DNA of 64,000 nt, taken from NCBI GenBank assembly GCA_951406725.2, contig OX597827.1, forward strand, positions 72,664,001 through 72,728,000, read 5' to 3'. Made by a program: the position numbers and the translations under genes. This DNA comes from Octopus vulgaris (Eukaryota). Below, one piece after another: positions 3,316-61,945 of this stretch; the stretch's first letter is position 1, and each line of letters starts with the position of its first letter. The notes under the pieces are model-generated. The model did not search any database and was not told where the DNA came from. It worked only from the letters and a program-made list of their open reading frames with translations.

Positions 3316-3363
3316 CAGCATCTGGCAAGGAAACTCTTCATAATTTTCATCACAATCTGGAAC
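3316..3363 (-). CDS. Micro-exon (VPDCDENYEEFPCQML)
   Basis: ttttctttttttctttag acceptor, GTAAGT donor, 48 nt, phase 0. Confidence 0.8.
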
Positions 3364-4175: not shown

Positions 4176-4647
4176 TCATATAATATATATATGATATATA
4201 TTATGGGTGCAGGCGTGGCTATGCAGTAAGAAGCTTGCTTCCCAATCACATGATTCCAGATTTGGTAGACAGAATTGGAAGATGGAAGTGGATTTGCCAG
4301 ACGGAAATTGAAAGAAGCCCATCATATATATGTGTGTGTCCTTGTGTTGGTATGTTTATGTTCCTGTAACTTAGCGGTTTGACAAAAGGGATCAATAAAA
4401 TAAGTACCAGGCTTTAAAAAGAAAAGTCCTGGGGGGTCAACTCATTCAACTAAAATTCTTCAAGGTAGTGCCCCAGTATGGCCACAGTCTAATGACTGAA
4501 ACATGTAAAAGATAAAGAATATGCTTAAAGATTTTGTTTACTGTTTAATCCCAAATGTGGAAGTTCCCCCTGCAGCTCTTCCCATCCCAGCCACATTGTT
4601 TAAGGGAAACCAATATAACTTGGTGCCACTGATGCTATCACAAGTGA

Positions 4648-7600: not shown

Positions 7601-8080
7601 AGTTTGTCCAATGCTCTTGTGATTCCACCAATCTATCATCTTGGACCGGTACTTTGTTTTATTGGTTCAAGAAGGTTGAAAGACAACATAGATCTCAGCA
7701 GGATTTGAACTCAGAATGTAAAAGAGATGGAACTAGTACAACAGAATAGTTTGTCCAATGCTCTTGTGATTCCACCAATCTATCATCTTGGACCGGTACT
7801 TTGTTTTATTGGTTCAAGAAGGGTGAAAGACAACATAGATCTCAGCAGGATTTGAACTCAGAATGTAAAAGAGATGGAACTAGTACAACAGAATAGTTTG
7901 TCCAATGCTCTTGTGATTCCACCCAATCTATCATCTTGGACCGGTACTTTGTTTTATTGGTTCAAGAAGGGTGAAAGACAACATAGATCTCAGCAGGATT
8001 TGAACTCAGAATGTAAAAGCTTGCAACAAATATTGCAAGGCAGCTCTAATGCTTCCTGATTGACTAAAAAATTCTTGAAG
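4648..8080. repeat. Tandem satellite of 147-bp A units interspersed with 78-bp B units, SINE-derived
   Basis: cagaatgtaaaag recurs at 4651, 4798, 4945, 5092 (period 147); B units at 5239, 5464, 5983, 6355, 6727 and ~8007. Confidence 0.95.
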
Positions 8081-13505: not shown

Positions 13506-13804
13506 CACCGTGACCGACCAGGCTATCAGATGTTGCAACACATCGCTGGTCACAATGCGCTTCGCATTGTTTTAGCCTTCAAATGACGCCACCCTGCTGG
13601 CTAAGCGAGCAGGCCAACAGAAGAAAGAGTGAGAGAAAGTTGTGGCAAAAGAGTACAGCAGGGATCGCCACCACCCCCTGCCGGAGCCTCATGGAGCTTT
13701 AGGTGTTTTCGCTCAATAAACACTCACAACGCCCGGTCTGGGAATCGAAACCGCGATCCTACAACCGCGAGTCTGCTGCCCTAACCACTGGGCCATTGCG
13801 CCTC

Positions 13805-13807
<3 letters not shown>
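13506..13807 (-). mobile_element. tRNA-derived SINE (same subfamily as 8526-8829)
   Basis: Near-identical to 8526-8829; flanked by (TA)n. Confidence 0.85.
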
Positions 13808-13847
<40 letters not shown>

Positions 13848-13850
<3 letters not shown>

Positions 13851-15260
13851 TCTCCGGCTTTTCAACTCTTTCTCCTTTCCTCCCGGCTCCTCCAAAATCC
13901 TTTTTACTATGGACATCCAAAGCCTCTATACTGTTATCCCTCACCACGAAGGACTGCAGGCCCTTCGACACTTTCTTGACCTCCGCTCTAACCCTGTACC
14001 TGACACCTCCACACTCATTCGTCTGGCCGAACTTGTCCTTACTCTGAACTGCTTCTCGTTCGCGGGCGAGTTCTACCATCAGGTCTCGGGAGTGGCCATG
14101 GGAACGCGAATGGGCCCCAACTATGCGAACTTGTTCGTTGGCTATGTTGAGGCCCAAATATTCTCTAATTTCACTGGTCCCACTCCTGAACTATATGGTC
14201 GTTATATTGACGACATTATCGGTGCCACCTCACTCTCCCGCGAACATCTAGATTCCTTCCTCTCTTTCGTCCAATCTTTCCATCCAGCCCTCCACTTCAC
14301 TTCCACTATCTCCAACACCTCTGTCTCCTTCCTCGACATTTCGGTTAGCATTCTTCACTCCACTCTTACCACCTCCATTCACTACAAACACACAGACTCA
14401 CACTCATACCTCAACTTCTCTTCCTCCCACCCAGAACACACCAAGCTTTCCATCCCCTATTCCCAATTCCTCCGTCTACGTAGGCTCTGTAGTGACGACC
14501 ATGACTTTGAGACTCAGTCTCAACGTATGGCTCACCACTTCACCCTACGTGGATACCCCCTCACCACTATCCACACCGCCCTTGCCAGAGCACGGTCCGT
14601 GGACCGTGTATCTGCTCTCTCTCCCCGAACCCGCCCTGTAGTCTCCCGCCTCCCTTTTCCCCTCACTTACCACCCCACGAACCTACGTCTCCAACGCACC
14701 ATTCTTCGAGCTTTCCGTCATCTCCAGTCCGACCCGTCCACTTCACACCTGTTCCCTAACCGACCCCTCCCCTCTTTCAAACGAGCCCACAACCTTCGAG
14801 ACCTTTTGGTCCATAGCTCCTTCCCTGACCCTACCTCCCAACCCGGCTCGTTCCCCTGCTCCCGCCCACGTTGCCGCACTTGCCCTTACCTCTCCAACAC
14901 CACCCGCCTCACTAGCACCCACCATCGACCCTATCCCATCATCCACTCCTTCACCTGCACCTCCAGCAATATTATCTATTGCATCTCTTTTGCTCTCTCT
15001 GCAATTCCTTGTACATCGGACAAACGGGACGCCGCTTGGCTGACCGGTTCGCGGAACACCTTCGTGACATCCACCTTGCGAACGACACACCGGTCTCACG
15101 CCATTTCCGCTCCACCGGTCACTCCTTGCAACACCTATCTGTGTTCGGTTTGTCCTTACACAGAGGCCATCCGGATTCCCATTTGCGCCGTGAACAGGAA
15201 TTAATCTTCTCTCTTCGCTCTTATACGCCATTTGGTCTCAACTCTCCCCCCTCCTCATCT
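13848..15260 (+). mobile_element. Penelope-like retroelement, 5'-truncated: reverse transcriptase plus GIY-YIG endonuclease with a frameshift near 14990
   Basis: MDIQSLYT, QVSGVAMG, RYIDD and FLD RT motifs; C-x4-C-x2-C linker; NIIYCIS continues in another frame as CSLCNSLYIGQTGRRLADRFAEH. Confidence 0.93.
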
Positions 15261-15550
15261 AACCTCACCCCCTCCTCACCTATCCTTTCTCCCCCCGACC
15301 CCTACTTCTTCAGTCCTTCATCCTTTCACCCCTACTCCCCTTCCCTTCTTCCCTCTTTCTCCCTCCCTCTTCCCCTTCCCTCTGCTCCCTCACTCCCTCT
15401 CTCCCCTTCTCCCTCTTTCCTCCTTCATCCCCCTCATCCCCTTCCTTCTCCCCCATCCTCTCCTCCCCCTTCTCCTCCCCCTCTTCTTCCCCTCCCCTTC
15501 TCTCCCCCCTCTTCTCCCCTCCCCCTCTTCTCCCCTCCCCCTCTTCTCCT
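15240..15550. repeat. CT-rich low-complexity tract
   Basis: Seen directly. Confidence 0.9.
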
Positions 15551-17893: not shown

Positions 17894-17944
17894 CTTCAAT
17901 TTGTTCCGTGCAGGTGGCAGGGGTGGAGCATTCATCTTGGGTGC
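17894..17944 (-). CDS. Micro-exon (APKMNAPPLPPARNKLK)
   Basis: tttttccaccattccag acceptor, AAG|GTAAGT donor, 51 nt, phase 0. Confidence 0.8.
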
Positions 17945-28515: not shown

Positions 28516-28554
28516 CTCCCCATCAGATTGCTCATATTCAAAAGTATCATAGTT
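28516..28554 (-). CDS. Micro-exon (NYDTFEYEQSDGE)
   Basis: ttcattttcag acceptor, GAG|GTAAGT donor, 39 nt, phase 0. Confidence 0.8.
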
Positions 28555-33032: not shown

Positions 33033-33649
33033 ATAATTATAATGTGGGGTCAGCTAATTGCTTCACTACATACCGAATTTAGAAATAGGGGTTTAATAAT
33101 TCCTTTTCTACTGCTATAAGTATCTCCATGACGATAAACATACTTTTTTACGTAGGCAAAGAGAAAAACAATGAATCAACACGACCAGGATTAACTATAT
33201 ACGCGTTTTGCTATTAAAGTGATTTAAATTTACTTACTTCTCTCTTCAGTGTAGCATTTCCAATTATAAAATTTGAAAGTGCTAGGGTTAAATATGAACA
33301 CGATTGAGTGACATTGTGCAACAGATATCCAACCAACACTTTTTGAAGTGTCACTTGGTTATCTGTTGCACGATGTCACTTGATCGTGTGCATATTTAAC
33401 CTTAGTACTTTCAAATTTTATAATTGGAAATGCTACACTGATGATGAGAAGTAAGTAATTAAACATTTCAATGTCGAAACATGTCCATGGCTAATAGGAG
33501 TCGTGTTGGTTCATTGTTTTTCTCTTTGCCCCTACGTAAAAATAAAAGTATGTTACTGTCGTGGAGATACTTATAGCAGTAGAAAAGGGACTTTTAACTC
33601 CTATTTCTAAATTTGGTATGTGGTGAAGCAATTAGCTGACCCCTAATTA

Positions 33650-42147: not shown

Positions 42148-42491
42148 AAGGAGAATGGTTGGCATATATACATTTATACATAAGGCGGCGAGCTGGCAGA
42201 AACGTTAGCATGCCGGGCGAAATGTGTAGCCGTATTTCGTCTGCCGTTACGTTCGGAGTTCAAATTCCGCCGAGGTCGAATTTGCCTTTCATCCTTTCGG
42301 GGTCGATAAATAAAGTACCAGTTATGCACTGGGGTCGATGTAATCGACTTCATCCGTTTGTCTGTCCTTGTTTGTCCCCTCTGTGTTTAGCCCCTTGTGG
42401 GTAGTAAAGAAATATATACATTTATACATAAATACACACACATGTACATATACATGCATATATATAGATTGACAGATATATATATATATAT

Positions 42492-45400
42492 ATAACATAA
42501 GGGACTAAAGCCATCTGAATATGGCTAGGGACAGGGCAGGGTGGTGGGGGTGTTACTGTTGCATTTAGCCCCAGGCGAACATCGACGTCACCAGAAAGGC
42601 CCGACACCGTCACGGTGTCCTTAACCTGCAAAGGGAGGTAATTCCCCGATGAAGCGGAAACCACACACGGACCATGGTTTCAAGGTGTATTGCCTATCGT
42701 CGGCGTGTGGTAGGCTTCCGCTCCCTCGACGAATCCTCACTCTGCAGGATATTCATATATAGATTTTCAAGCAAAATACATTTGCTGATTTCGAAAATCT
42801 GTTCGAAAGCAATAATAATTCTCTAAAAGAGATATAGACAGTAACTGCTCGATAACATAAGGGACTAAAGCCATCTGAATATGGCTAGGGACAGGGCAGG
42901 GTGGTGGGGGTGTTACTGTTGCATTTAGCCCCAGGCGAACATCGACGTCACCAGAAAGGCCCGACACCGTCACGGTGTCCTTAACCTGCAAAGGGAGGTA
43001 ATTCCCCGATGAAGCGGAAACCACACACGGACCATGGTTTCAAGGTGTATTGCCTATCGTCGGCGTGTGGTAGGCTTCCGCTCCCTCGACGAATCCTCAC
43101 TCTGCAGGATATTCATATATAGATTTTCAAGCAAAATACATTTGCTGATTTCGAAAATCTGTTCGAAAGCAATAATAATTCTCTAAAAGAGATATAGACA
43201 GTAACTGCTCGATAACATAAGGGACTAAAGCCATCTGAATATGGCTAGGGACAGGGCAGGGTGGTGGGGGTGTTACTGTTGCATTTAGCCCCAGGCGAAC
43301 ATCGACGTCACCAGAAAGGCCCGACACCGTCACGGTGTCCTTAACCTGCAAAGGGAGGTAATTCCCCGATGAAGCGGAAACCACACACGGACCATGGTTT
43401 CAAGGTGTATTGCCTATCGTCGGCGTGTGGTAGGCTTCCGCTCCCTCGACGAATCCTCACTCTGCAGGATATTCATATATAGATTTTCAAGCAAAATACA
43501 TTTGCTGATTTCGAAAATCTGTTCGAAAGCAATAATAATTCTCTAAAAGAGATATAGACAGTAACTGCTCGATAACATAAGGGACTAAAGCCATCTGAAT
43601 ATGGCTAGGGACAGGGCAGGGTGGTGGGGGTGTTACTGTTGCATTTAGCCCCAGGCGAACATCGACGTCACCAGAAAGGCCCGACACCGTCACGGTGTCC
43701 TTAACCTGCAAAGGGAGGTAATTCCCCGATGAAGCGGAAACCACACACGGACCATGGTTTCAAGGTGTATTGCCTATCGTCGGCGTGTGGTAGGCTTCCG
43801 CTCCTCGACGAATCCTCACTCTGCAGGATATTCATATATAGATTTTCAAGCAAAATACATTTGCTGATTTCGAAAATCTGTTCGAAAGCAATAATAATTC
43901 TCTAAAAGAGATATAGACAGTAACTGCTCGATAACATAAGGGACTAAAGCCATCTGAATATGGCTAGGGACAGGGCAGGGTGGTGGGGGTGTTACTGTTG
44001 CATTTAGCCCCAGGCGAACATCGACGTCACCAGAAAGGCCCGACACCGTCACGGTGTCCTTAACCTGCAAAGGGAGGTAATTCCTCGATGAAGCGGAAAC
44101 CACACACGGACCATGGTTTCAAGGTGTATTGCCTATCGTCGGCGTGTGGTAGGCTTCCGCTCCCTCGACGAATTCTCACTCTGCAGGATATTCATATATA
44201 GATTTTCAAGCAAAATACATTTGCTGATTTCGAAAATCTGTTCGAAAGCAATAATAATTCTCTAAAAGAGATATAGACAGTAACTGCTCGATAACATAAG
44301 GGACTAAAGCCATCTGAATATGGCTAGGGACAGGGCAGGGTGGTGGGGGTGTTACTGTTGCATTTAGCCCCAGGCGAACATCGACGTCACCAGAAAGGCT
44401 CGACACCGTCACGGTGTCCTTAACCTGCAAAGGGAGGTAATTCCCCGATGAAGCGGAAACCACACACGGACCATGGTTTCAAGGTGTATTGCCTATCGTC
44501 GGCGTGTGGTAGGCTTCCGCTTCCTCGACGAATTCTCACTCTGCAGGATATTCATATATAGATTTTCAAGCAAAATACATTTGCTGATTTCGAAAATCTG
44601 TTCGAAAGCAATAATAATTCTCTAAAAGAGATATAGACAGTAACTGCTCGATAACATAAGGGACTAAAGCCATCTGAATATGGCTAGGGACAGGGCAGGG
44701 TGGTGGGGGTGTTACTGTTGCATTTAGCCCCAGGCGAACATCGACGTCACCAGAAAGGCTCGACACCGTCACGGTGTCCTTATCCTGCAAAGGGAGGTAA
44801 TTCCCCGATGAAGCGGAAACCACACACGGACCATGGTTTCAAGGTGTATTGCCTATCGTCGGCGTGTGGTAGGCTTCCGCTTCCTCGACGAATTCTCACT
44901 CTGCAGGATATTCATATATAGATTTTCAAGCAAAATACATTTGCTGATTTCGAAAATCTGTTCGAAAGCAATAATAATTCTCTAAAAGAGATATAGACAG
45001 TAACTGCTCGATAACATAAGGGACTAAAGCCATCTGAATATGGCTAGGGACAGGGCAGGGTGGTGGGGGTGTTACTGTTGCATTTAGCCCCAGGCGAACA
45101 TCGACGTCACCAGAAAGGCTCGACACCGTCACGGTGTCCTTATCCTGCAAAGGGAGGTAATTCCCCGATGAAGCGGAAACCACACACGGACCATGGTTTC
45201 AAGGTGTATTGCCTATCGTCGGCGTGTGGTAGGCTTCCGCTTCCTCGACGAATTCTCACTCTGCAGGATATTCATATATAGATTTTCAAGCAAAATACAT
45301 TTGCTGATTTCGAAAATCTGTTCGAAAGCAATAATAATTCTCTAAAAGAGATATAGACAGTAACTGCTCGATAACATAAGGGACTAAAGCCATCTGAATA

Positions 45401-46382
45401 TGGCTAGGGACAGGGCAGGGTGGTGGGGGTGTTACTGTTGCATTTAGCCCCAGGCGAACATCGACGTCACCAGAAAGGCCCGACACCGTCACGGTGTCCT
45501 TAACCTGCAAAGGGAGGTAATTCCCCGATGAAGCGGAAACCACACACGGACCATGGTTTCAAGGTGTATTGCCTATCGTCGGCGTGTGGTAGGCTTCCGC
45601 TTCCTCGACGAATTCTCACTCTGCAGGATATTCATATATAGATTTTCAAGCAAAATACATTTGCTGATTTCGAAAATCTGTTCGAAAGCAATAATAATTC
45701 TCTAAAAGAGATATAGACAGTAACTGCTCGATAACATAAGGGACTAAAGCCATCTGAATATGGCTAGGGACAGGGCAGGGTGGTGGGGGTGTTACTGTTG
45801 CATTTAGCCCCAGGCGAACATCGACGTCACCAGAAAGGCCCGACACCGTCACGGTGTCCTTAACCTGCAAAGGGAGGTAATTCCCCGATGAAGCGGAAAC
45901 CACACACGGACCATGGTTTCAAGGTGTATTGCCTATCGTCGGCGTGTGGTAGGCTTCCGCTTCCTCGACGAATCCTCACTCTGCAGGATATTCATATATA
46001 GATTTTCAAGCAAAATACATTTGCTGATTTCGAAAATCTGTTCGAAAGCAATAATAATTCTCTAAAAGAGATATAGACAGTAACTGCTCGATAACATAAG
46101 GGACTAAAGCCATCTGAATATGGCTAGGGACAGGGCAGGGTGGTGGGGGTGTTACTGTTGCATTTAGCCCCAGGCGAACATCGACGTCACCAGAAAGGCT
46201 CGACACCGTCACGGTGTCCTTATCCTGCAAAGGGAGGTAATTCCCCGATGAAGCGGAAACCACACACGGACCATGGTTTCAAGGTGTATTGCCTATCGTC
46301 GGCGTGTGGTAGGCTTCCGCTCCCTCGACGAATCCTCACTCTGCAGGATATTCATATATAGATTTTCAAGCAAAATACATTT
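42492..46382 (-). repeat. Tandem array of ~10.8 x 360-bp near-identical units, each with a predicted hammerhead (retrozyme-like)
   Basis: Units start at 42492, 42852, 43212, 43572, 43931 ... 46091; first HHR at 42664-42709 (minus). Confidence 0.95.
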
Positions 46383-46385
46383 TTC

Positions 46386-46747
46386 CTTTCGAACAGATTT
46401 TCGAAATCAGCAAATGTATTTTGCTTGAAAATCTATATATGAATATCCTGCAGAGTGAGGATTCGTCGAGGGAGCGGAAGCCTACCACACGCCGACGATA
46501 GGCAATACACCTTGAAACCATGGTCCGTGTGTGGTTTCCGCTTCATCGAGGAATTACCTCCCTTTGCAGGTCAAGGACACCGTGACGGTGTCGGGCCTTT
46601 CTGGTGACGTCGATGTTCGCCTGGGGCTAAATGCAACAGTAACACCCCCACCACCCTGCCCTGTCCCTAGCCATATTCAGATGGCTTTAGTCCCTTATGT
46701 TATCGAGCAGTTACTGTCTATATCTCTTTTAGAGAATTATTATTGCT
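46386..46747 (+). repeat. One complete inverted copy of the 360-bp unit
   Basis: Reverse complement of the array unit; followed by (TA)n. Confidence 0.95.
46486..46531 (+). ncRNA. Type I hammerhead of the 360-bp unit (representative copy)
   Basis: CACACG-CCGACGA-TAGGCAATACACCTT-GAAA-CCATGG-TC|CGTGTG. Confidence 0.78.
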
Positions 46748-46771
46748 ATATATATATATATATATATATAC

Positions 46772-47165
46772 AAGCAGTATCGCCCGGCGTTGCTTGGGTT
46801 TGTAAGGGAAATAACTATATAAGCTTTTTTAGAGATGTAAAGTATAATAGCCATCTCAATATGGCTAACCACAAAGGCGGGGGGGGGGCTGTTACTATAG
46901 CTTTTTACGTTCTGAGATTTAATAATACATTTTTAGAGAGTTACTTCCCTTATATAGTAGCAAAAAAATGCATTAAAATGGGAAAAAATTATGGTATTTT
47001 TTTTTTAAATCGTAGACTCATCATAGACGCGCGCTAATACCCAGAAGGGCTCGATATGAATCACGACTATAAGATACCCACTTTTGGTTACACTGCACCG
47101 CAAAATGTGGGAGTAGTTAGGAATCTAAATCATTGGGAGACAGACACACAACTTCACTTTTATAT
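46772..47165 (-). mobile_element. Non-autonomous Helitron copy related to 20597-21123
   Basis: Shares the gcagtatcgcccggcgttgc end and the gactcatc...gacagacacacaac segment. Confidence 0.75.
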
Positions 47166-47917
47166 ATATATATATATATATGACAGATAGTTGCATACAT
47201 ACATATATACATATTTTTTTAACATTCAATTTCTATACTTGTGATTGGTTGGAAGGTGTTTTCTTGAGACAGATTATCTATGGCTGGATGATCTTGCTCT
47301 CGTCACTCTTCACCTGTTTTCGTGAAAGGTAATATTTTCCTCATGACCAGATATTTTCTGAAGGAAGACTGCAAATGAAGGACACTGAATTCATAATGCT
47401 GGTGTGAAGGCGTAGTCATAGGTGCAGACGTGGCTGTGTGGTAAGAAGCTTACTTCCGAACCACATGGTTCTGGGTTCAGTCCCACTGAATGGCACTTTG
47501 GGCTACCAAATTCTCTCACAAGGCTTTGGTAGATGGAAACTAAAAGATGTTGTGTGTGTGTGTGTGTGTGCATATGGATGTGTGTGTGTGTGTATGTGTA
47601 GGAGCATGTGTGTGTGTATAAGCATGTGTGTGTGTGTGTGTATTATGTGCACGTGTGTGTCTGTATCTCTGTGTTTGTCCCCTAAATCCACCATGTGACA
47701 ACCAGTGCTAATGCAACTACATCCTTGTAACTTAGCGGTCCAGCAAAAGAGACTGACAGAATAAGCACCAGGTTTAAAGAAACAAAAATAAGCACTGGGG
47801 TCGATATGTTTGACTGGAAATTCTTCAAGGCTGTGCTCCAGCATGGCCACAATCTAAATACTGAAACAAGTTAAAGATAAAAAAAAAACTATCAGTCGAT
47901 GACAAGTGAAATTGACT

Positions 47918-47951
<34 letters not shown>

Positions 47952-48211
47952 TTTTGCCTAAAGTCACCATCTTGTCCCCTATTCTCCTCTTCAGATGTAG
48001 GGGCTTTTTAGTCATGTACATTACAATGCATTCATGCTGGTGTCACAGAGTAAAGGAAAGGCATCCAGAACACCTTACAAAATGGTTGTTGTTAGGAAGG
48101 GCATTCAGAGGTAGAAAGCATGCAACTTTGGAGTGCAATGTGGTCCCTTGCCCTGTTGGATTGTGTAAAACTCTTCCAACCCATGCCAGCAAGGAAAGTG
48201 GATATGATGAA

Positions 48212-48249
<38 letters not shown>

Positions 48250-49005
48250 AATGGTTTCTCTCTCTCTTTCTTTCTCTCTCTCTCTTTCTGTAAAATCACT
48301 GAAAGAGATTATAAAACTATTTCTCTCTTTCTATGAGAACACAGAGCTGAATGGGCAGTGAAAGTGGGCCAAAAGCACAAAAGACACACAAAAAGGAAAG
48401 AAAAAAAACTAACAACAACAACAACAATTACAACAATAGCAACAACAACAACAACAAACTAGATAGTAAAAATAAAAATATAAACATAAAAACTTCAAAA
48501 TGTGTGTGTGCGGGTCTGTGTGCATATATATGCGTATGCTTGTGTGTAATAATGCATGTGTGTTTGTGTGTGCGTGTATTTATGGTTGTATTTATATATG
48601 CATGAATGCATTATTTATATATATTTATGTGAGTGTATATATGTGTAGTTATGCATATTTTCTGATGGGACAAACTGGAATTTCCTTTATCCTGTTTGAA
48701 TACTTGTAACCTTCACCTAGCACAGATCCAACAGTTGCCCTTAAGAAGTTTGTTTGGCAAAACCTTATAATACTCCGTAACCTTATAATCCATTCTTCCA
48801 TGACCAACCCTCCATAACCTTTTAAGAGTTATTAGGTAAATATAGGCGCAGGAGTGGCTGTGTGGTAAGTAGCTTGCTTAGCAACCACATGGTTCCGGGT
48901 TCAGTCCCACTGCATGGCACCTTGGGCAAGTGTCTTCTACTATAGCCTTGTGAGTGGATTTGGCAGACAGAAACTGAGAGAAGCCTGTCGTATATATATA
49001 TATAC

Positions 49006-49065
<60 letters not shown>

Positions 49066-52000
49066 TTGTGCTTGTCCCCCCACCATCGCTTGACAACCGA
49101 GGCTGGTGTGTTTACATCCCCGTAACTTAGCAGTTTGGCAAAAGAGACCAATAGAATAAGTACTAGGCTTACAAAGATTGAGTCCTGGGGTTGATTTGTT
49201 TGACTAAAGGCGGTGCCCCAGCATGGCCACAGTCAAATGACTGAAACAAATAAAAGAGTATATATAATATATGTAATGTAAGGCTGTGAGTTGGCAGAAT
49301 AATAAGCATACTTAGCATAAAAACTTAAAAGTATTTCCTCCAAGTTGTTTGGAGGCTGTGATTGAAGCCAATGGCTATTTTATTGAATAAATTCACTGTT
49401 TAGTATTTCAAGATATTTTTATGTAATTTTGGTAAATATATCTGATAAAATGAGATGTTAGTGTTATTTTCATTTTTGCGTAATTTAGATAATATATCCA
49501 CCACGCCCTGCATGTGTATTATATATGTAATGTATATATAATAAATAAATATAATATATATGTGTGTGTGTGTAATAATTAAATCATATATTATGCATTT
49601 TATTGTGTTTTGTTATGCATATGATCCCCTGTTCCATGGGAAAACTGTCTTGACTGAAACCAGTCTGTGATACAAAAATGTCTGGAGACCACTAACGTAA
49701 GGCATAAATAAAAGCCCATATGATGTTCAGGTTTTCTGTTGTAGTAAATTTATCATAAGCTAAGAGATACAAACTACACTTTTTAAGCTTGAAATATATC
49801 TTTCCGAAATTAGAAGTCACTTTATAAGGTGGGAATAGAATGTAAACCATAACCACAAAGAGATAATCAAGAAAAATTGGGCTCCGGGTGATTGAGGTGT
49901 ACTTCTTGTTGTAACTCCAGCAAGTTACCACAAATAATTTCAAATAGAAGTGGAAATTAGTGAATCTATTTAATATATTGGAATTTGTAGTTTTGTGGTA
50001 CCAGTGCCGGTGGCACATACGAAAACCATCCGAACGTGGCCGTAGCCAGTACCGCATTGACTGGCCTCCGTGCCGGTGGCACGTAAAAAACACCATCCGA
50101 GCGTGGCCGTTCACCAGCCTCGTCTGGCACCTGTGTCGGTGGCACATAAAATCACCCACTACACTCTCGGAGTGGTTGGCGTTAGGAAGGGCATCCAGCT
50201 GTAGAAACACTGCCAGATCTGACTGGCCTGGTGCAGCCTTCGGGCTTCCCAGACCCCAGTTGAACCGTCCAACCCATGCTAGCATGGAAAGCGGACGTTA
50301 AACGATGATGATGATGATGATGAACATACAGATTACCAGTGACATGTAATAATGATTTAAAAAATTGTTTACCTGGCGGGAGATTATATTTTTTGTGTCG
50401 AAACATGGCCTGGAATCTAGGGTTTTAGATCTAATTTAGCAGAAACCAAAGTCCTAGTAAGTGGGAAAACAGAAAAATCACAAGTCCCTTCTCGGAGATG
50501 GCCCTACTTGATATGTAAAAAGGGTGTCTGTAGAAACTCCATATGTTGTATCCAGTGAAAGCGTTGGTGTAGTGGTATCAGATGAAGGTTAACGGAGAAT
50601 ATAGTGTTGTGTGTTGCAAATGCATTAAAATGGGAAAAAATTATGGTATTTTTTTTTTAAATCGTAGACTCATCATAGACGCGCGCTAATACCCAGAAGG
50701 GCTCGATATGAATCATGACTATAAGATACCCACTTTTGGTTACACTGCACCGCAAAATGTGGGAGTAGTTAGGAATCTAAATCATTGGGAGACAGACACA
50801 CAACTTCACTTTTATATATATATATATATGACAGATAGTTGCATACATACATATATACATATTTTTTTAACATTCAATTTCTATACTTGTGATTGGTTGG
50901 AAGGTGTTTTCTTGAGACAGATCATCTATGGCTGGATGATCTTGCTCTCGTCACTCTTCACCTGTTTTCGTGAAAGGTAATATTTTCCTCATGACCAGAT
51001 ATTTTCTGAAGGAAGACTGCAAATGAAGGACACTGAATTCATAATGCTGGTGTGAAGGCGTAGTCATAGGTGCAGACGTGGCTGTGTGGTAAGAAGCTTA
51101 CTTCCGAACCACATGGTTCTGGGTTCAGTCCCACTGAATGGCACTTTGGGCTACCAAATTCTCTCACAAGGCTTTGGTAGATGGAAACTATGTGTGTGTG
51201 TGTGTGTGTGCATATGGATGTGTGTGTGTGTATGTGTAGGAGCATGTGTGTGTGTATAAGCATGTGTGTGTGTGTGTGTATTATGTGCACGTGTGTGTCT
51301 GTATCTCTGTGTTTGTCCCCTAAATCCACCATGTGACAACCAGTGCTAATGCAACTACATCCTTGTAACTTAGCGGTCCAGCAAAAGAGACTGACAGAAT
51401 AAGCACCAGGTTTAAAGAAACAAAAATAAGCACTGGGGTCGATATGTTTGACTGGAAATTCTTCAAGGCTGTGCTCCAGCATGGCCACAATCTAAATACT
51501 GAAACAAGTTAAAGATAAAAAAAAAAACTATCAGTCGATGACAAGTGAAATTGACTGTAACACACACACACACACACACACACGCTTTTTGCCTAAAGTC
51601 ACCATCTTGTCCCCTATTCTCCTCTTCAGATGTAGGGGCTTTTTAGTCATGTACATTACAATGCATTCATGCTGGTGTCACAGAGTAAAGGAAAGGCATC
51701 CAGAACACCTTACAAAATGGTTGTTGTTAGGAAGGGCATTCAGAGGTAGAAAGCATGCAACTTTGGAGTGCAATGTGGTCCCTTGCCCTGTTGGATTGTG
51801 TAAAACTCTTCCAACCCATGCCAGCAAGGAAAGTGGATATGATGAAATGATGATGATGATGATGATGATGATAATGGTTTCTCTCTCTCTTTCTTTCTCT
51901 CTCTCTCTTTCTGTAAAATTACTGAAAGAGATTATAAAACTATTTCTCTCTTTCTATGAGAACACAGAGCTGAATGGGCAGTGGAAAGTGGGCCAAAAGC

Positions 52001-52664
52001 ACAAAAGACACACAAAAAGGAAAAAAAAAAACTAACAACAACAACAATTACAACAATAGCAACAATAACAACAACAACAACAACAACAAACTAGATAGTA
52101 AAAATAAAAATATAAACATAAAAACTTCAAAATGTGTGTGTGCGGGTCTGTGTGCATATATATGCGTATGCTTGTGTGTAATAATGCATGTGTGTTTGTG
52201 TGTGTGTGTATTTATGGTTGTATTTATATATGCATGAATGCATTATTTATATATATTTATGTGAGTGTATATATGTGTAGTTATGCATATTTTCTGATGG
52301 GACAAACTGGAATTTCCTTTATCCTGTTTGAATACTTGTAACCTTCACCTAGCACAGATCCAACAGTTGCCCTTAAGAAGTTTGTTTGGCAAAACCTTAT
52401 AATACTCCGTAACCTTATAATCCATTCTTCCATGACCAACCCTCCATAACCTTTTAAGAGTTATTAGGTAAATATAGGCGCAGGAGTGGCTGTGTGGTAA
52501 GTAGCTTGCTTAGCAACCACATGGTTCCGGGTTCAGTCCCACTGCATGGCACCTTGGGCAAGTGTCTTCTACTATAGCCTTGGGCCGACCAAAGCCTTGT
52601 GAGTGGATTTGGCAGACAGAAACTGAGAGAAGCCTGTCGTATATATATATATACATATATATAT

Positions 52665-52713
<49 letters not shown>

Positions 52714-55700
52714 TTGTGCTTGTCCCCCCCACCATCGCTTGACAACCGAGGCTGGTGTGTTTACATCCCCGTAACTTAGCAGTTTGGCAAAAGAGACCAA
52801 TAGAATAAGTACTAGGCTTACAAAGATTGAGTCCTGGGGTTGATTTGTTTGACTAAAGGCGGTGCCCCAGCATGGCCACAGTCAAATGACTGAAACAAAT
52901 AAAAGAGTATATATAATATATGTAATGTAAGGCTGTGAGTTGGCAGAATAATAAGCATACTTAGCATAAAAACTTAAAAGTATTTCCTCCAAGTTGTTTG
53001 GAGGCTGTGATTGAAGCCAATGGCTATTTTATTGAATAAATTCACTGTTTAGTATTTCAAGATATTTTTATGTAAGTTTGGTAAATATATCTGATAAAAT
53101 GAGATGTTAGTGTTATTTTCATTTTTGCGTAATTTAGATAATATATCCACCACGCCCTGCATGTGTATTATATATGTAATGTATATATAATAAATAAATA
53201 TAATATATATGTGTGTGTGTAATAATTAAATCATATATTATGCATTTTATTGTGTTTTGTTATGCATATGATCCCCTGTTCCATGGGAAAACTGTCTTGA
53301 CTGAAACCAGTCTGTGATACAAAAATGTCTGGAGACCACTAACGTAAGGCATAAATAAAAGCCCATATGATGTTCAGGTTTTCTGTTGTAGTAAATTTAT
53401 CATAAGCTAAGAGATACAAACTACACTTTTTAAGCTTGAAATATATCTTTCCGAAATTAGAAGTCACTTTATAAGGTGGGAATAGAATGTAAACCATAAC
53501 CACAAAGAGATAATCAAGAAAAATTGGGCTCCGGGTGATTGAGGTATACTTCTTGTTGTAACTCCAGCAAGTTACCACAAATAATTTCAAATAGAAGTGG
53601 AAATTAGTGAATCTATTTAATATATTGGAATTTGTAGTTTTGTGGTACCAGTGCCGGTGGCACATACGAAAACCATCCGAACGTGGCCGTAGCCAGTACC
53701 GCATTGACTGGCCTCCGTGCCGGTGGCACGTAAAAAACACCATCCGAGCGTGGCCGTTCACCAGCCTCGTCTGGCACCTGTGTCGGTGGCACATAAAATC
53801 ACCCACTACACTCTCGGAGTGGTTGGCGTTAGGAAGGGCATCCAGCTGTAGAAACACTGCCAGATCTGACTGGCCTGGTGCAGCCTTCGGGCTTCCCAGA
53901 CCCCAGTTGAACCGTCCAACCCATGCTAGCATGGAAAGCAGACGTTAAACGATGATGATGATGATGATGAACATACAGATTACCAGTGACATGTAATAAT
54001 GATTTAAAAAATTGTTTACCTGGCGGGAGATTATATTTTTTGTGTCGAAACTTGGCCTGGAATCTCAGGGTTTTAGATCTAATTTAGCAGAAACCAAAGT
54101 CCTAGTAAGTGGGAAAACAGAAAAATCACAAGTCCCTTCTCGGAGATGGCCCTACTTGATATGTAAAAAGGGTGTCTGTAGAAACTCCATATGTTGTATC
54201 CAGTGAAAGCGTTGGTGTAGTGGTATCAGATGAAGGTTAACGGAGAATATAGTGTTGTGTGTTGCAAATGCATTAAAATGGGAAAAAATTATGGTATTTT
54301 TTTTTTTAAATTGTAGACTCATCATAAACGCGCGCTAATACCCAGAAGGGCTCGATATGAATCACGACTATAAGATACCCACTTTTGGTTACACTGCACC
54401 GCAAAATGTGGGAGTAGTTAGGAATCTAAATCATTGGGAGACAGACACACAACTTCACTTTTATATATATATATATATGACAGATAGTTGCATACATACA
54501 TATATACATATTTTTTTAACATTCAATTTCTATACTTGTGATTGGTTGGAAGGTGTTTTCTTGAGACAGATTATCTATGGCTGGATGATCTTGCTCTCGT
54601 CACTCTTCACCTGTTTTCGTGAAAGGTAATATTTTCCTCATGACCAGATATTTTCTGAAGGAAGACTGCATATGAAGGACACTGAATTCATAATGCTGGT
54701 GTGAAGGCGTAGTCATAGGTGCAGACGTGGCTGTGTGGTAAGAAGCTTACTTCCGAACCACATGGTTCTGGGTTCAGTCCCACTGAATGGCACTTTGGGC
54801 TACCAAATTCTCTCACAAGGCTTTGGTAGATGGAAACTAAAAGATGTTGTGTGTGTGTGTGTGTGTGCATATGGATGTGTGTGTGTGTATGTGTAGGAGC
54901 ATGTGTGTGTGTATAAGCATGTGTGTGTGTGTGTGTATTATGTGCACGTGTGTGTCTGTATCTCTGTGTTTGTCCCCTAAATCCACCATGTGACAACCAG
55001 TGCTAATGCAACTACATCCTTGTAACTTAGTGGTCCAGCAAAAGAGACTGACAGAATAAGCACCAGGTTTAAAGAAACAAAAATAAGCACTGGGGTCGAT
55101 ATGTTTGACTGGAAATTCTTCAAGGCTGTGCTCCAGCATGGCCACAATCTAAATACTGAAACAAGTTAAAGATAAAAAAAAAACTATCAGTCGATGACAA
55201 GTGAAATTGACTGTAACACACACACACACACACACACACACGCTTTTTGCCTAAAGTCACCATCTTGTCCCCTATTCTCCTCTTCAGATGTAGGGGCTTT
55301 TTAGTCATGTACATTACAATGCATTCATGCTGGTGTCACAGAGTAAAGGAAAGGCATCCAGAACACCTTACAAAATGGTTGTTGTTAGGAAGGGCATTCA
55401 GAGGTAGAAAGCATGCAACTTTGGAGTGCAATGTGGTCCCTTGCCCTGTTGGATTGTGTAAAACTCTTCCAACCCATGCCAGCAAGGAAAGTGGATATGA
55501 TGAAATGATGATGATGATGATGATGATAATGGTTTCTCTCTCTCTTTCTTTCTCTCTCTCTCTTTCTGTAAAATCACTGAAAGAGATTATAAAACTATTT
55601 CTCTCTTTCTATGAGAACACAGAGCTGAATGGGCAGTGGAAGTGGGCCAAAAGCACAAAAGACACACAAAAAGGAAAAAAAAAAACTAACAACAACAACA

Positions 55701-56320
55701 ATTACAACAATAGCAACAATAACAACAACAACAACAACAACAAACTAGATAGTAAAAATAAAAATATAAACATAAAAACTTCAAAATGTGTGTGTGCGGG
55801 TCTGTGTGCATATATATGCGTATGCTTGTGTGTAATAATGCATGTGTGTTTGTGTGTGTGTGTATTTATGGTTGTATTTATATATGCATGAATGCATTAT
55901 TTATATATATTTATGTGAGTGTATATATGTGTAGTTATGCATATTTTCTGATGGGACAAACTGGAATTTCCTTTATCCTGTTTGAATACTTGTAACCTTC
56001 ACCTAGCACAGATCCAACAGTTGCCCTTAAGAAGTTTGTTTGGCAAAACCTTATAATACTCCGTAACCTTATAATCCATTCTTCCATGACCAACCCTCCA
56101 TAACCTTTTAAGAGTTATTAGGTAAATATAGGCGCAGGAGTGGCTGTGTGGTAAGTAGCTTGCTTAGCAACCACATGGTTCCGGGTTCAGTCCCACTGCA
56201 TGGCACCTTGGGCAAGTGTCTTCTACTATAGCCTTGGGCCGACCAAAGCCTTGTGAGTGGATTTGGCAGACAGAAACTGAGAGAAGCCTGTCGTATATAT
56301 ATATATACATATATATATAT

Positions 56321-56374
<54 letters not shown>

Positions 56375-58869
56375 TTGTGCTTGTCCCCCCCACCATCGCT
56401 TGACAACCGAGGCTGGTGTGTTTACATCCCCGTAACTTAGCAGTTTGGCAAAAGAGACCAATAGAATAAGTACTAGGCTTACAAAGATTGAGTCCTGGGG
56501 TTGATTTGTTTGACTAAAGGCGGTGCCCCAGCATGGCCACAGTCAAATGACTGAAACAAATAAAAGAGTATATATAATATATGTAATGTAAGGCTGTGAG
56601 TTGGCAGAATAATAAGCATACTTAGCATAAAAACTTAAAAGTATTTCCTCCAAGTTGTTTGGAGGCTGTGATTGAAGCCAATGGCTATTTTATTGAATAA
56701 ATTCACTGTTTAGTATTTCAAGATATTTTTATGTAATTTTGGTAAATATATCTGATAAAATGAGATGTTAGTGTTATTTTCATTTTTGCGTAATTTAGAT
56801 AATATATCCACCACGCCCTGCATGTGTATTATATATGTAATGTATATATAATAAATAAATATAATATATATGTGTGTGTGTAATAATTAAATCATATATT
56901 ATGCATTTTATTGTGTTTTGTTATGCATATGATCCCCTGTTCCATGGGAAAACTGTCTTGACTGAAACCAGTCTGTGATACAAAAATGTCTGGAGACCAC
57001 TAACGTAAGGCATAAATAAAAGCCCATATGATGTTCAGGTTTTCTGTTGTAGTAAATTTATCATAAGCTAAGAGATACAAACTACACTTTTTAAGCTTGA
57101 AATATATCTTTCCGAAATTAGAAGTCACTTTATAAGGTGGGAATAGAATGTAAACCATAACCACAAAGAGATAATCAAGAAAAATTGGGCTCCGGGTGAT
57201 TGAGGTGTACTTCTTGTTGTAACTCCAGCAAGTTACCACAAATAATTTCAAATAGAAGTGGAAATTAGTGAATCTATTTAATATATTGGAATTTGTAGTT
57301 TTGTGGTACCAGTGCCGGTGGCACATACGAAAACCATCCGAACGTGGCCGTAGCCAGTACCGCATTGACTGGCCTCCGTGCCGGTGGCACGTAAAAAACA
57401 CCATCCGAGCGTGGCCGTTCACCAGCCTCGTCTGGCACCTGTGTCGGTGGCACATAAAATCACCCACTACACTCTCGGAGTGGTTGGCGTTAGGAAGGGC
57501 ATCCAGCTGTAGAAACACTGCCAGATCTGACTGGCCTGGTGCAGCCTTCGGGCTTCCCAGACCCCAGTTGAACCGTCCAACCCATGCTAGCATGGAAAGC
57601 GGACGTTAAACGATGATGATGATGATGATGAACATACAGATTACCAGTGACATGTAATAATGATTTAAAAAATTGTTTACCTGGCGGGAGATTATATTTT
57701 TTGTGTCGAAACATGGCCTGGAATCTAAGGGTTTTAGATCTAATTTAGCAGAAACCAAAGTCCTAGTAAGTGGGAAAACAGAAAAATCACAAGTCCCTTC
57801 TCGGAGATGGCCCTACTTGATATGTAAAAAGGGTGTCTGTAGAAACTCCATATGTTGTATCCAGTGAAAGCGTTGGTGTAGTGGTATCAGATGAAGGTTA
57901 ACGGAGAATATAGTGTTGTGTGTTGCAAATGCATTAAAATGGGAAAAAATTATGGTATTTTTTTTTTAAATCGTAGACTCATCATAGACGCGCGCTAATA
58001 CCCAGAAGGGCTCGATATGAATCACGACTATAAGATACCCACTTTTGGTTACACTGCACCGCAAAATGTGGGAGTAGTTAGGAATCTAAATCATTGGGAG
58101 ACAGACACACAACTTCACTTTTATATATATATATATATGACAGATAGTTGCATACATACATATATACATATTTTTTTAACATTCAATTTCTATACTTGTG
58201 ATTGGTTGGAAGGTGTTTTCTTGAGACAGATCATCTATGGCTGGATGATCTTGCTCTCGTCACTCTTCACCTGTTTTCGTGAAAGGTAATATTTTCCTCA
58301 TGACCAGATATTTTCTGAAGGAAGACTGCAAATGAAGGACACTGAATTCATAATGCTGGTGTGAAGGCGTAGTCATAGGTGCAGACGTGGCTGTGTGGTA
58401 AGAAGCTTACTTCCGAACCACATGGTTCTGGGTTCAGTCCCACTGAATGGCACTTTGGGCTACCAAATTCTCTCACAAGGCTTTGGTAGATGGAAACTAA
58501 AAGATGTGTGTGTGTGTGTGTGTGCATATGGATGTGTGTGTGTGTATGTGTAGGAGCATGTGTGTGTGTATAAGCATGTGTGTGTGTGTGTGTATTATGT
58601 GCACGTGTGTGTCTGTATCTCTGTGTTTGTCCCCTAAATCCACCATGTGACAACCAGTGCTAATGCAACTACATCCTTGTAACTTAGCGGTCCAGCAAAA
58701 GAGACTGACAGAATAAGCACCAGGTTTAAAGAAACAAAAATAAGCACTGGGGTCGATATGTTTGACTGGAAATTCTTCAAGGCTGTGCTCCAGCATGGCC
58801 ACAATCTAAATACTGAAACAAGTTAAAGATAAAAAAAAAACTATCAGTCGATGACAAGTGAAATTGACT

Positions 58870-58903
<34 letters not shown>

Positions 58904-59974
58904 TTTTGCCTAAAGTCACCATCTTGTCCCCTATTCTCCTCTTCAGATGTAGGGGCTTTTTAGTCATGTACATTACAATGCATTCATGCTGGTGTCACAG
59001 AGTAAAGGAAAGGCATCCAGAACACCTTACAAAATGGTTGTTGTTAGGAAGGGCATTCAGAGGTAGAAAGCATGCAACTTTGGAGTGCAATGTGGTCCCT
59101 TGCCCTGTTGGATTGTGTAAAACTCTTCCAACCCATGCCAGCAAGGAAAGTGGATATGATGAAATGATGATGATGATGATGATGATGATAATGGTTTCTC
59201 TCTCTCTTTCTTTCTCTCTCTCTCTTTCTGTAAAATTACTGAAAGAGATTATAAAACTATTTCTCTCTTTCTATGAGAACACAGAGCTGAATGGGCAGTG
59301 GAAGTGGGCCAAAAGCACAAAAGACACACAAAAAGGAAAAAAAAAAACTAACAACAACAACAATTACAACAATAGCAACAATAACAACAACAACAACAAC
59401 AACAAACTAGATAGTAAAAATAAAAATATAAACATAAAAACTTCAAAATGTGTGTGTGCGGGTCTGTGTGCATATATATGCGTATGCTTGTGTGTAATAA
59501 TGCATGTGTGTTTGTGTGTGTGTGTGTATTTATGGTTGTATTTATATATGCATGAATGCATTATTTATATATATTTATGTGAGTGTATATATGTGTAGTT
59601 ATGCATATTTTCTGATGGGACAAACTGGAATTTCCTTTATCCTGTTTGAATACTTGTAACCTTCACCTAGCACAGATCCAACAGTTGCCCTTAAGAAGTT
59701 TGTTTGGCAAAACCTTATAATACTCCGTAACCTTATAATCCATTCTTCCATGACCAACCCTCCATAACCTTTTAAGAGTTATTAGGTAAATATAGGCGCA
59801 GGAGTGGCTGTGTGGTAAGTAGCTTGCTTAGCAACCACATGGTTCCGGGTTCAGTCCCACTGCATGGCACCTTGGGCAAGTGTCTTCTACTATAGCCTTG
59901 GGCCGACCAAAGCCTTGTGAGTGGATTTGGCAGACAGAAACTGAGAGAAGCCTGTCGTATATATATATATATAC

Positions 59975-60048
<74 letters not shown>

Positions 60049-61605
60049 TTGTGCTTGTCCCCCCCCACCATCGCTTGACAACCGAGGCTGGTGTGTTTAC
60101 ATCCCCGTAACTTAGCAGTTTGGCAAAAGAGACCAATAGAATAAGTACTAGGCTTACAAAGATTGAGTCCTGGGGTTGATTTGTTTGACTAAAGGCGGTG
60201 CCCCAGCATGGCCACAGTCAAATGACTGAAACAAATAAAAGAGTATATATAATATATGTAATGTAAGGCTGTGAGTTGGCAGAATAATAAGCATACTTAG
60301 CATAAAAACTTAAAAGTATTTCCTCCAAGTTGTTTGGAGGCTGTGATTGAAGCCAATGGCTATTTTATTGAATAAATTCACTGTTTAGTATTTCAAGATA
60401 TTTTTATGTAATTTTGGTAAATATATCTGATAAAATGAGATGTTAGTGTTATTTTCATTTTTGCGTAATTTAGATAATATATCCACCACGCCCTGCATGT
60501 GTATTATATATGTAATGTATATATAATAAATAAATATAATATATATGTGTGTGTGTAATAATTAAATCATATATTATGCATTTTATTGTGTTTTGTTATG
60601 CATATGATCCCCTGTTCCATGGGAAAACTGTCTTGACTGAAACCAGTCTGTGATACAAAAATGTCTGGAGACCACTAACGTAAGGCATAAATAAAAGCCC
60701 ATATGATGTTCAGGTTTTCTGTTGTAGTAAATTTATCATAAGCTAAGAGATACAAACTACACTTTTTAAGCTTGAAATATATCTTTCCGAAATTAGAAGT
60801 CACTTTATAAGGTGGGAATAGAATGTAAACCATAACCACAAAGAGATAATCAAGAAAAATTGGGCTCCGGGTGATTGAGGTGTACTTCTTGTTGTAACTC
60901 CAGCAAGTTACCACAAATAATTTCAAATAGAAGTGGAAATTAGTGAATCTATTTAATATATTGGAATTTGTAGTTTTGTGGTACCAGTGCCGGTGGCACA
61001 TACGAAAACCATCCGAACGTGGCCGTAGCCAGTACCGCATTGACTGGCCTCCGTGCCGGTTGCACGTAAAAAACACCATCCGAGCGTGGCCGTTCCCCAG
61101 CCTCGTCTGGCACCTGTGTCGGTGGCACATAAAATCACCCACTACACTCTCGGAGTGGTTGGCGTTAGGAAGGGCATCCAGCTGTAGAAACACTGCCAGA
61201 TCTGACTGGCCTGGTGCAGCCTTCGGGCTTCCCAGACCCCAGTTGAACCGTCCAACCCATGCTAGCATGGAAAGCAGACGTTAAACGATGATGATGATGA
61301 TGATGAACATACAGATTACCAGTGACATGTAATAATGATTTAAAAAATTGTTTACCTGGCGGGAGATTATATTTTTTGTGTCGAAACATGGCCTGGAATC
61401 TAAGGGTTTTAGATCTAATTTAGCAGAAACCAAAGTCCTAGTAAGTGGGAAAACAGAAAAATCACAAGTCCCTTCTCGGAGATGGCCCTACTTGATATGT
61501 AAAAAGGGTGTCTGTAGAAACTCCATATGTTGTATCCAGTGAAAGCGTTGGTGTAGTGGTATCAGATGAAGGTTAACGGAGAATATAGTGTTGTGTGTTG
61601 CAAAT
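46965..61605. repeat. Four-copy tandem duplication of a ~3.65-3.68 kb repeat-mosaic segment
   Basis: Homologous ORF positions 49692, 53339, 57000, 60675; junctions at ~50618, ~54266, ~57927. Confidence 0.95.
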
Positions 61606-61945
61606 GTGCAAGTATAATAAGTAGATAACGTCGTGAAAAGTTGCAGATAGCATTTTTATCTAGGAGACAAAGTTAGCAACGGGAGAAGGAGTTGAAAGTA
61701 TAGTTGCTAAGATAAGAACACGCTCGATAAAGTTCAGAGAGCCTGTGTATGTGTAGATGTTAGATGGCAGTGCAACGTGGGCTTTGACGACAGAGGATTT
61801 GCAAAGGCTTGAGAGAAATGAAGATAGAATGCTCTGCTGGAGTAAATGGCCTGTGTGCAAGCGTGACAAAAAGTAAAGGATTTAAGAGGCAAACTGTGTA
61901 GAAGAGGCGTCAGATGTTGTGTACAAGAAAGAAGACTGCACTTGT
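61385..61945 (+). mobile_element. Degenerate RTE-like RT fragment (only its 5' part lies in the tandem units)
   Basis: Similar to 40822-41250 and to the 10126-10862 ORF. Confidence 0.7.

What the first reader, a model, noticed from the sequence alone, without database searches (positions are those of the whole stretch)
42492..46747. Homogeneous 360-bp tandem array in which every unit encodes a predicted hammerhead ribozyme (retrozyme-like)
Seen: ~10.8 near-identical 360-bp units plus one inverted unit, bounded by (TA)n on both sides. On the minus strand each unit reads CACACG (stem I) - CCGACGA - AGG caataca CCT (stem II) - GAAA - CCATGG (palindromic stem III) - TC| - CGTGTG. Stem I extends into a ~130-nt rod (CCTGCAGAG...GCGGAA / TTCCGC...CTTTGCAGG), and the rest of the unit is rich in hairpins. 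Established: type I hammerheads with a short palindromic stem III occur in Penelope pLTRs and metazoan non-LTR retrozymes, where tandem copies self-cleave (often as dimers) into monomer RNAs that can circularise. Inference: a multimeric transcript, possibly the host pre-mRNA itself since it is on the same strand, would be cut into 360-nt RNAs. The array could be an integrated rolling-circle cDNA.
Basis: partly seen in the sequence, partly recalled or inferred. Interest (0 to 1): 0.92.

Follow-up and report, generated by a model that had tools for sequence, protein, structure and literature searches.

The report
Hammerhead repeat copied by Penelope enzymes
This array is one insertion of a young, protein-free repeat spread across the genome, whose 360-letter units each carry a predicted self-cutting RNA, and whose insertion scars indicate that it was likely copied from a small RNA, probably a circle, by a borrowed Penelope-type jumping-gene enzyme.

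Summary
In detail: 10.8 direct 360-bp units plus one inverted unit between (TA)n runs, each with a type I hammerhead motif. The core is a variant (U4C, U·U at the base of stem II). The motif occurs 1,332 times genome-wide (control 2). Its stems co-vary across 20 related sequences.

Dispersed copies show the Penelope-like element (PLE) footprint. They are mostly two inverted arms in (TA)n, one starting at unit position ~1 and the other at ~317, which leaves a one-sided 44-nt tail (42 of 46 and 48 of 49 two-arm insertions). Young RT/GIY-YIG PLEs in this genome end the same way. Both arms share one haplotype. Three A→G alleles are each confined to one insertion yet recur in several laps, which fits re-reading of one RNA. 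Arms either both stop before the predicted cut (21 of 48) or both pass it (21).

Against: cleavage and RNA are untested, the active fold is not the predicted ground state, this array is a haplotype mosaic, and the partner PLE is not identified. Verdict: a new member of the animal non-LTR retrozymes with informative scars. The scan found this kind before, in this genome and others.

The parts
42476..42491 (.). Left part of the (TA)n target microsatellite
   Evidence: sequence
42492..46382 (-). Long arm: 10.8 tandem 360-bp units, hammerhead (RNA) strand is minus; begins at the proximal start site (unit position 1)
42664..42709 (-). Predicted type I hammerhead of unit 1 (U4C core, U·U at base of stem II, palindromic stem III); predicted cut between 42670 and 42669; repeated in all 11 direct units
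   Evidence: sequence; covariation; cleavage untested
42625..42748 (-). Predicted 124-nt rod that encloses the hammerhead (unit 1)
42723..42723 (-). A-to-G allele (RNA sense, unit position 232) found only in this insertion: units 1, 2, 3, 5, 11 and the inverted arm
   Evidence: 6 genome matches, all in this array
46383..46747 (+). Inverted arm, about one unit, hammerhead strand is plus; begins at the distal start site (unit position 317); junction uncertain by 4-5 nt
46486..46531 (+). Predicted hammerhead of the inverted arm; predicted cut after 46525
   Evidence: sequence
46704..46747 (+). 44-nt one-sided tail between the two start sites (unit positions 317-360)
   Evidence: tail concept from PMC11167929
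46748..46770 (.). Right part of the (TA)n target microsatellite
   Evidence: sequence

Best explanation
The array is one insertion of a young non-coding repeat family whose 360-nt RNA unit carries a predicted hammerhead ribozyme and was likely reverse-transcribed into (TA)n sites by a borrowed Penelope-like (Neptune/Nematis-type) RT-endonuclease. Shown: family size, two inverted arms, two fixed start sites 44 nt apart with one used per arm, shared arm haplotypes, covarying hammerhead stems. Inferred steps: (1) tandem copies are transcribed; (2) the hammerhead, probably slow and working as a dimer through palindromic stem III, cuts out monomers, some of which are ligated into circles; (3) the PLE protein cuts both strands of a (TA)n target, and each DNA 3' end primes cDNA inside the same RNA, one at each start site; (4) on a cut linear monomer both arms run out before the cut site, while on a circle they run past it for several laps, which would give arrays like this one; (5) the two cDNA ends are joined head to head. 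The mosaic interior of this array would then be later conversion, template switching or assembly polishing.
For: Ends: 42 of 46 two-arm insertions in set 1 pair a start at unit position ~1 with one at ~317. In set 2, chosen on the distal end only, 48 of 49 do so and none pairs two distal starts. All two-arm cases have starts facing outward. 99 of 107 start ends abut (TA)n (hand count of flags), and 13-nt target duplications flank the two clearly non-(TA)n two-arm sites, L103 and L109. Frangieh et al. (PMC11167929) show that a PLE RT starts at two internal sites and that the tail is the sequence between them. PLE families A and B of this genome (RT + GIY-YIG) are young, sit in (TA)n and also end at two sites. 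Hammerhead: 97.8% of 278 cells paired, 9 of 14 pairs with two-sided change including C3-G8 to U3-A8, slid controls 19-40% paired. U4C with U·U also dominates PLE family B (1,171 against 356 U4 matches). One template: arms share a haplotype in 43 of 45 and 30 of 35 insertions against 12.6% of 1,953 random pairs. A-to-G alleles confined to one insertion recur in 6 of 6, 3 of 3 and 6 of 11 units. A-to-G makes up 7 of 21 such shared rare alleles against 12 of 189 single-unit variants (p 8.5e-4). Arms both stop before the cut in 21, both pass it in 21, mixed in 6 of 48 (p 1e-7).
Against: No cleavage assay and no RNA evidence. The active fold is not the predicted ground state (stem I 0.24-0.28, stem II 0.05, stem III 0). 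U4C lowers activity in vitro (PMC3088659), 8 of 9 frog retrozyme dimers did not cleave, and a PLE inserted in vitro without hammerhead cleavage. No significant sequence match between the unit and PLE family A or B (best E 0.088). Arm stops do not pile up at the cut site (5 of 92 and 7 of 98 within unit positions 170-190), and the short/long boundary fits any threshold from 160 to 250, so stalling at the rod explains it as well. This array is a mosaic of family haplotypes (2.4 differences between units against 0.8 in other loci). Two set-1 insertions pair two proximal starts. Of the 7 A-to-G alleles, two are one site seen in two loci and one matches a sister-family allele. Copies show no lower variant density in the hammerhead (2.27 against 2.06 per kb).
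Confidence: 0.72

Rival explanations
1. Same PLE-driven insertion, but the template is an uncut linear multimer transcribed from a source array. The U4C hammerhead is nearly inactive in this youngest family, and no circle is needed.
For: Hammerhead mutants did not reduce insertion by a PLE in vitro. Low predicted active fold. This array and a few others mix family haplotypes (11 of 61 multi-unit loci heterogeneous at a common site). A source array with uniform units would also give matching arms.
Against: Alleles present in several laps or both arms are found nowhere else in the assembly (3 of 3 tested) and are enriched for A-to-G. Excess stops at unit positions 120-180 occur in the first lap only (0.35 against 0.13 in later laps, p 5e-4), whereas a multimer would present the same rod in every unit. 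U4C is also the main form in active PLE family B.
Confidence: 0.2
2. Insertions were short, and long arrays such as this one grew afterwards by unequal crossover or conversion, as ordinary satellite DNA.
For: The mosaic block pattern in this array looks like conversion. Many insertions have arms under one unit. Li et al. favour local amplification after birth.
Against: Both arms can be long (L093: 14.7 and at least 6.3 units; L094: 9.1 and 3.1), arm lengths fall off smoothly, and passing the cut site is coupled between arms. This rival explains length only, not the ends.
Confidence: 0.06
3. A DNA-level mobile satellite or Helitron-type element with a chance hammerhead look-alike.
For: No Rfam hammerhead hit. 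A 58-bp stretch of the unit resembles (76%) the neighbouring repeat at 46849-46905, which I recall as Helitron-like.
Against: Covariation of all stems and of the 3-8 core pair, two fixed outward starts, target duplications and strand-biased A-to-G alleles.
Confidence: 0.02

Closest known systems
Metazoan non-LTR retrozymes (Cervera and de la Pena 2020, PMC7229834, passages and section 14 read; Li, Clavereau and Pollet 2026, 10.64898/2026.07.22.740005, parts 1-3 of 5 read)
   Same: Non-coding tandem units in the 170-400 nt range (mussel 350-390) with one type I hammerhead each, GC under 50%, self-paired RNA, many dispersed copies, PLEs in the same genome.
   Different: Core variant U4C plus U·U. 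Insertions are mostly two inverted arms with two fixed start sites and a one-sided tail, which the parts I read do not describe for retrozymes. No sequence match to a PLE pLTR was found here, unlike 24 of 57 frog families that matched known elements. Cleavage and circles are untested here.
EN+ Penelope-like elements (Craig et al. 2021, 10.1101/2021.04.23.441226, passages read; Frangieh et al. 2024, PMC11167929, parts 1-2 of 4 read; Cervera and de la Pena 2014, PMC4209133, parts 1-2 of 4 read)
   Same: Partial tandems, an inverted 5'-truncated copy, a tail on one end only, AT-rich or (TA)n targets, two internal RT start sites, a hammerhead with small palindromic stem III.
   Different: No ORF. 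The whole element is a 360-nt unit repeated up to about 15 times per arm. The tail is 44 nt rather than 30-40.
Natural hammerhead core variants U4C, U3-A8 and U10.1·U11.1 (Perreault et al. 2011, PMC3088659, passages and section 8 read)
   Same: Each variant is known and compatible with some activity.
   Different: Here U4C and U·U occur together in about 1,290 genomic matches, and again in a co-resident autonomous PLE family.

Membership tests
Non-LTR retrozyme | Tandem units of a few hundred bp, each with a type I hammerhead | tested here: met
   360-bp units, motif in all 12; covariation
Non-LTR retrozyme | No protein-coding capacity | tested here: met
   No stop-free frame of 100 aa or more within the direct arm; one 173-aa stop-to-stop frame runs from the inverted arm out through (TA)n into the next repeat
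Non-LTR retrozyme | Dispersed multi-copy family with signs of retrotransposition | tested here: met
   1,332 matches; 120 family loci analysed; 13-nt target duplications at 2 non-(TA)n sites
Non-LTR retrozyme | Canonical catalytic core C3 U4 G5 A6 N7 G8 A9 | tested here: not met
   U4C in 1,293 of 1,332 pattern matches; older and sister families keep U4. A known tolerated variant, so this makes it a core variant rather than a non-member
Non-LTR retrozyme | Self-cleavage | not testable with these tools
   Indirect only: covariation, short/long arm classes
Non-LTR retrozyme | Unit-length circular RNA in tissue | tested here: inconclusive
   390-391-nt contigs in 3 of 4 runs fit a circle or a tandem array equally; runs only guessed to be RNA
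PLE-mobilised non-autonomous element | Inverted arms with a tail on one end only (two RT start sites) | tested here: met
   42 of 46 and 48 of 49 two-arm insertions
PLE-mobilised non-autonomous element | Young autonomous PLE with the same target and end pattern in the genome | tested here: met
   Families A (781-aa frame) and B (775-aa frame), RT + GIY-YIG, best copies 99-100% alike, (TA)n, two end sites
PLE-mobilised non-autonomous element | Sequence shared with the partner's pLTR or tail | tested here: inconclusive
   None with A or B, but only 150 of 6,136 GIY-YIG candidates were scored and 46 PLE loci compared
Neptune/Nematis clade (partner PLEs) | CX2-5CxxC motif upstream of a C-terminal GIY-YIG | tested here: met
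   Motif seen in both translations (definition). No RT tree was built, so the clade is not resolved
Autonomous PLE | RT-endonuclease ORF | tested here: not met

The most novel reading that the evidence does not exclude
The family is a genomic record of rolling-circle reverse transcription: a Penelope-type enzyme primes both target ends on one small RNA, cut linear monomers give short two-armed insertions, ligated circles give multi-lap arrays, and A-to-I edits made once on the circle are copied into every lap. The slowed U4C hammerhead has spread in both the passenger and a driver PLE, which would suggest that slow cutting is favoured.
Probability: 0.4. Interest if true: 0.72.

Novelty: new member of a known kind. 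Interest (0 to 1): 0.5.

Why it matters
Animal retrozymes have been proposed to move through circular RNA using PLE machinery, on grounds of co-occurrence and pLTR similarity. This family adds base-level scars of that route: the PLE two-start tail in nearly every two-armed insertion, and insertion-specific alleles repeated across laps. It gives exact predictions (two start sites, one cut site, two candidate driver ORFs with open frames) for an in vitro test of circle-templated PLE reverse transcription. Each two-armed insertion would also make long double-stranded RNA if transcribed from either strand.

Tried and rejected
Rfam scan: no hammerhead among 19 matches. RNA evidence: no RNA holder listed on record; 390-391-nt contigs in 3 of 4 guessed-RNA runs cannot tell a circle from a tandem array. 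Read support for a host gene was not obtained, so it stays a prediction from splice-like signals; aligning four candidate exons showed nothing. A 46-bp match between the tail and PLE locus L153 (E 2e-5) looked like a link to the driver but lies in an older retrozyme copy about 800 bp beyond the PLE end: rejected. An apparent A-to-G excess among within-locus minority variants (18 against 6) vanished once family-wide sites were left out (12 against 11): rejected. A pile-up of arm ends at the cut site was not found. My first idea that the inverted arm is exactly one lap because RT met its own start does not generalise: arm lengths vary widely. Locus L089 was dropped from set 1 (64 to 63 loci) because it holds only short scraps. 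Family PF26215 is not in the library.

Full report
Observation. The window holds 11 direct starts of a 360-bp unit from 42492 to 46382 and an inverted arm from about 46383 to 46747, between (TA)n runs. On the minus strand each unit reads CACACG CCGACGA U AGG caauaca CCU U GAAA CCAUGG UC CGUGUG. Two details were missed: the core has C at position 4 (U4C), and stem II starts with a U·U mismatch. Rfam returns no hammerhead. The surrounding rod is far more stable than shuffles, but the predicted ground state mispairs the hammerhead (stem I 0.24-0.28, stem II 0.05, stem III 0); the stem III palindrome can pair with a second copy at -11.2 kcal/mol. No call names the organism; earlier scan notes call it octopus-like, which fits my recall of its repeats.

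Family. The core pattern matches 1,332 times in the 2.8-Gb genome against 2 for the control. 39 matches have canonical U4, and only 1 of these has this family's stem II. Most of the others belong to older, homologous repeats with the same layout. A second motif finds 1,020 matches to sister families, 75-93% alike over full units, with a U3-U4...A8 core and the same two start sites. On an alignment of 20 sequences from these families, 97.8% of 278 cells pair, 9 of 14 pairs change on both sides (5 in stem I, 2 in stem II, 1 in the palindrome, and C3-G8 to U3-A8), and slid controls pair at 19-40%. The count of two-sided pairs alone was reached by 30 of 500 shuffles, and related sequences can beat shuffles, so the slid control and the core covariation carry the weight. 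The hammerhead has been under selection in the lineage. Whether the present U4C form still cuts is untested. U4C lowers activity in vitro yet supports viroid infection, and U·U is the best-tolerated mismatch there (PMC3088659).

Insertion anatomy. I examined two sets. Set 1: 63 loci including the window, taken from the best BLAST hits and the first places listed on contig C1 (L089 dropped). 46 have two inverted arms, all with their starts facing outward; 42 pair a start at unit position 1-15 with one at 315-322, 2 pair two proximal starts, 2 have one end truncated or outside the stretch; 17 are single-armed. Set 2: 60 of the 206 exact distal-end junctions, chosen without regard to the other end or the hammerhead. 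49 are two-armed; 48 pair with a proximal start and none with a second distal start. 99 of 107 start ends in set 1 abut (TA)n (hand count). The two clearly non-(TA)n two-arm sites have 13-nt target duplications, allowing a few bases of boundary shift. This is the PLE pattern: tandem plus inverted copy with a tail on one end (Craig et al., passages), the tail being the sequence between two internal RT start sites (Frangieh et al.). It also fixes the RNA strand: both arms enter as the complement of the hammerhead strand.

Candidate drivers. A GIY-YIG search scored 150 of 6,136 candidates. Two young families carry RT plus GIY-YIG with a CX2-5CxxC linker. Family A has a 781-aa frame, ends at two sites about 40 nt apart in (TA)n, and has a U3-A8 hammerhead-like motif. 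Family B has a 775-aa frame in 4,271-bp tandems, two end sites, and a hammerhead with U4C and U·U; the U4C form has 1,171 matches and the U4 form 356. Neither shares significant sequence with the unit, so the driver is not identified. The parallel between cores (sisters like A, this family like B) is a lead only.

Template. Arms of one insertion share a haplotype in 43 of 45 (set 1) and 30 of 35 (set 2) cases, against 12.6% of random pairs. Units differ by 0.8 substitutions within and 5.0 between loci. Rare alleles carried by two or more units of a locus are A-to-G in RNA sense in 7 of 21 cases, against 12 of 189 single-unit variants (p 8.5e-4); two of the seven are one site, and one matches a sister allele. 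Three were checked genome-wide and each is confined to its insertion: 6 of 6 laps in L037, 3 of 3 pieces over both arms in L238, and 6 units over both arms here. The simplest reading is a change made once on one RNA, plausibly by A-to-I editing, then copied on each lap (inference). Spread by later conversion, or a source locus absent from this assembly, cannot be excluded. In set 2 both arms stop before the predicted cut in 21 of 48 insertions, both pass it in 21, and 6 are mixed (p 1e-7). Among long pairs the lengths are uncorrelated (rho -0.04, n 60), and excess stopping at positions 120-180 is seen in the first lap only. This fits a mix of cut linear monomers and circles.

This locus. Unlike most arrays it is a mosaic. 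Units 1-3 and the inverted arm share the private allele and agree at 110 and 244, while interior units carry combinations seen in other loci. Conversion, template switching or polishing of the assembly could each give this; raw reads are needed. A host gene on the minus strand is suggested by small exon-like segments but not shown.

Known or new. It works like, and on the testable features belongs to, the animal non-LTR retrozymes (PMC7229834; 10.64898/2026.07.22.740005), with a core variant. Those papers propose PLE mobilisation from co-occurrence and pLTR similarity; in the parts I read they do not report the two-start tail architecture for retrozymes. Seven paper searches listed no description of a cephalopod retrozyme family; the library lacks most subscription papers and I read no supplements. 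The scan's own notes already report such families in this and other genomes (158 findings by words), probably including this one (e1-8663039, 359-bp unit, same genome); a look-up by sequence was empty. I had the two-start pattern before reading those notes; the editing test was prompted partly by one of them.

Verdict. Real feature; new member of a known kind; interest 0.5. Confidence about 0.9 that it is a PLE-mobilised retrozyme-type element, about 0.7 for the full model with unit-length RNA templates.

Noticed in passing
window 13720-15300 (+): A 5'-truncated Penelope-like element: 494-aa stop-free frame with RT-like motifs and a GIY-YIG-like piece in another frame (motifs recognised from recall, not scanned).
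   Followed up: no
window 46966-61606: Four tandem copies of a ~3.66-kb segment, 98-99% alike; each may hold a small minus-strand exon-like piece such as the one near 47307-47350.
   Followed up: no
window 46771-47170: A repeat next to the array, recalled as Helitron-like, shares a 58-bp stretch (76%) with unit positions 18-75, including an inverted GCCAT motif pair; possibly a shared promoter module.
   Followed up: no
window 671-718, 3316-3363, 17894-17944, 28516-28554, 33238-33281 (-): Small candidate exons with tyrosine/acidic and proline-rich peptides, suggesting a signalling-adaptor-like host gene on the minus strand; prediction only.
   Followed up: partly
L153, L276-L279: Young PLE family B: 454-aa and 775-aa overlapping frames in 4,271-bp tandems; hammerhead U4C form outnumbers the U4 form 1,171 to 356.
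   Followed up: partly
L143-L152: Young PLE family A with a 781-aa RT-EN frame, often preceded by a separate long upstream frame, and a U3-A8 hammerhead-like motif.
   Followed up: partly
L056, L160: Retrozyme and PLE family B copies sit side by side in the same (TA)n run, showing shared target use.
   Followed up: no
L225, L274, L219, L232: Arm junctions overlap at self-complementary parts of the unit (rod, 132-135 nt; GACACC hairpin, 15-18 nt), suggesting the two cDNA ends can be joined by annealing.
   Followed up: no
L066, L193, L197, L068:1909-2098: Other hammerhead families with long stem II and the same kind of palindromic stem III, not related to this unit.
   Followed up: no
window 4645-8019: A 147-bp tandem array with 225-bp variant units, up to 99% alike.
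   Followed up: no
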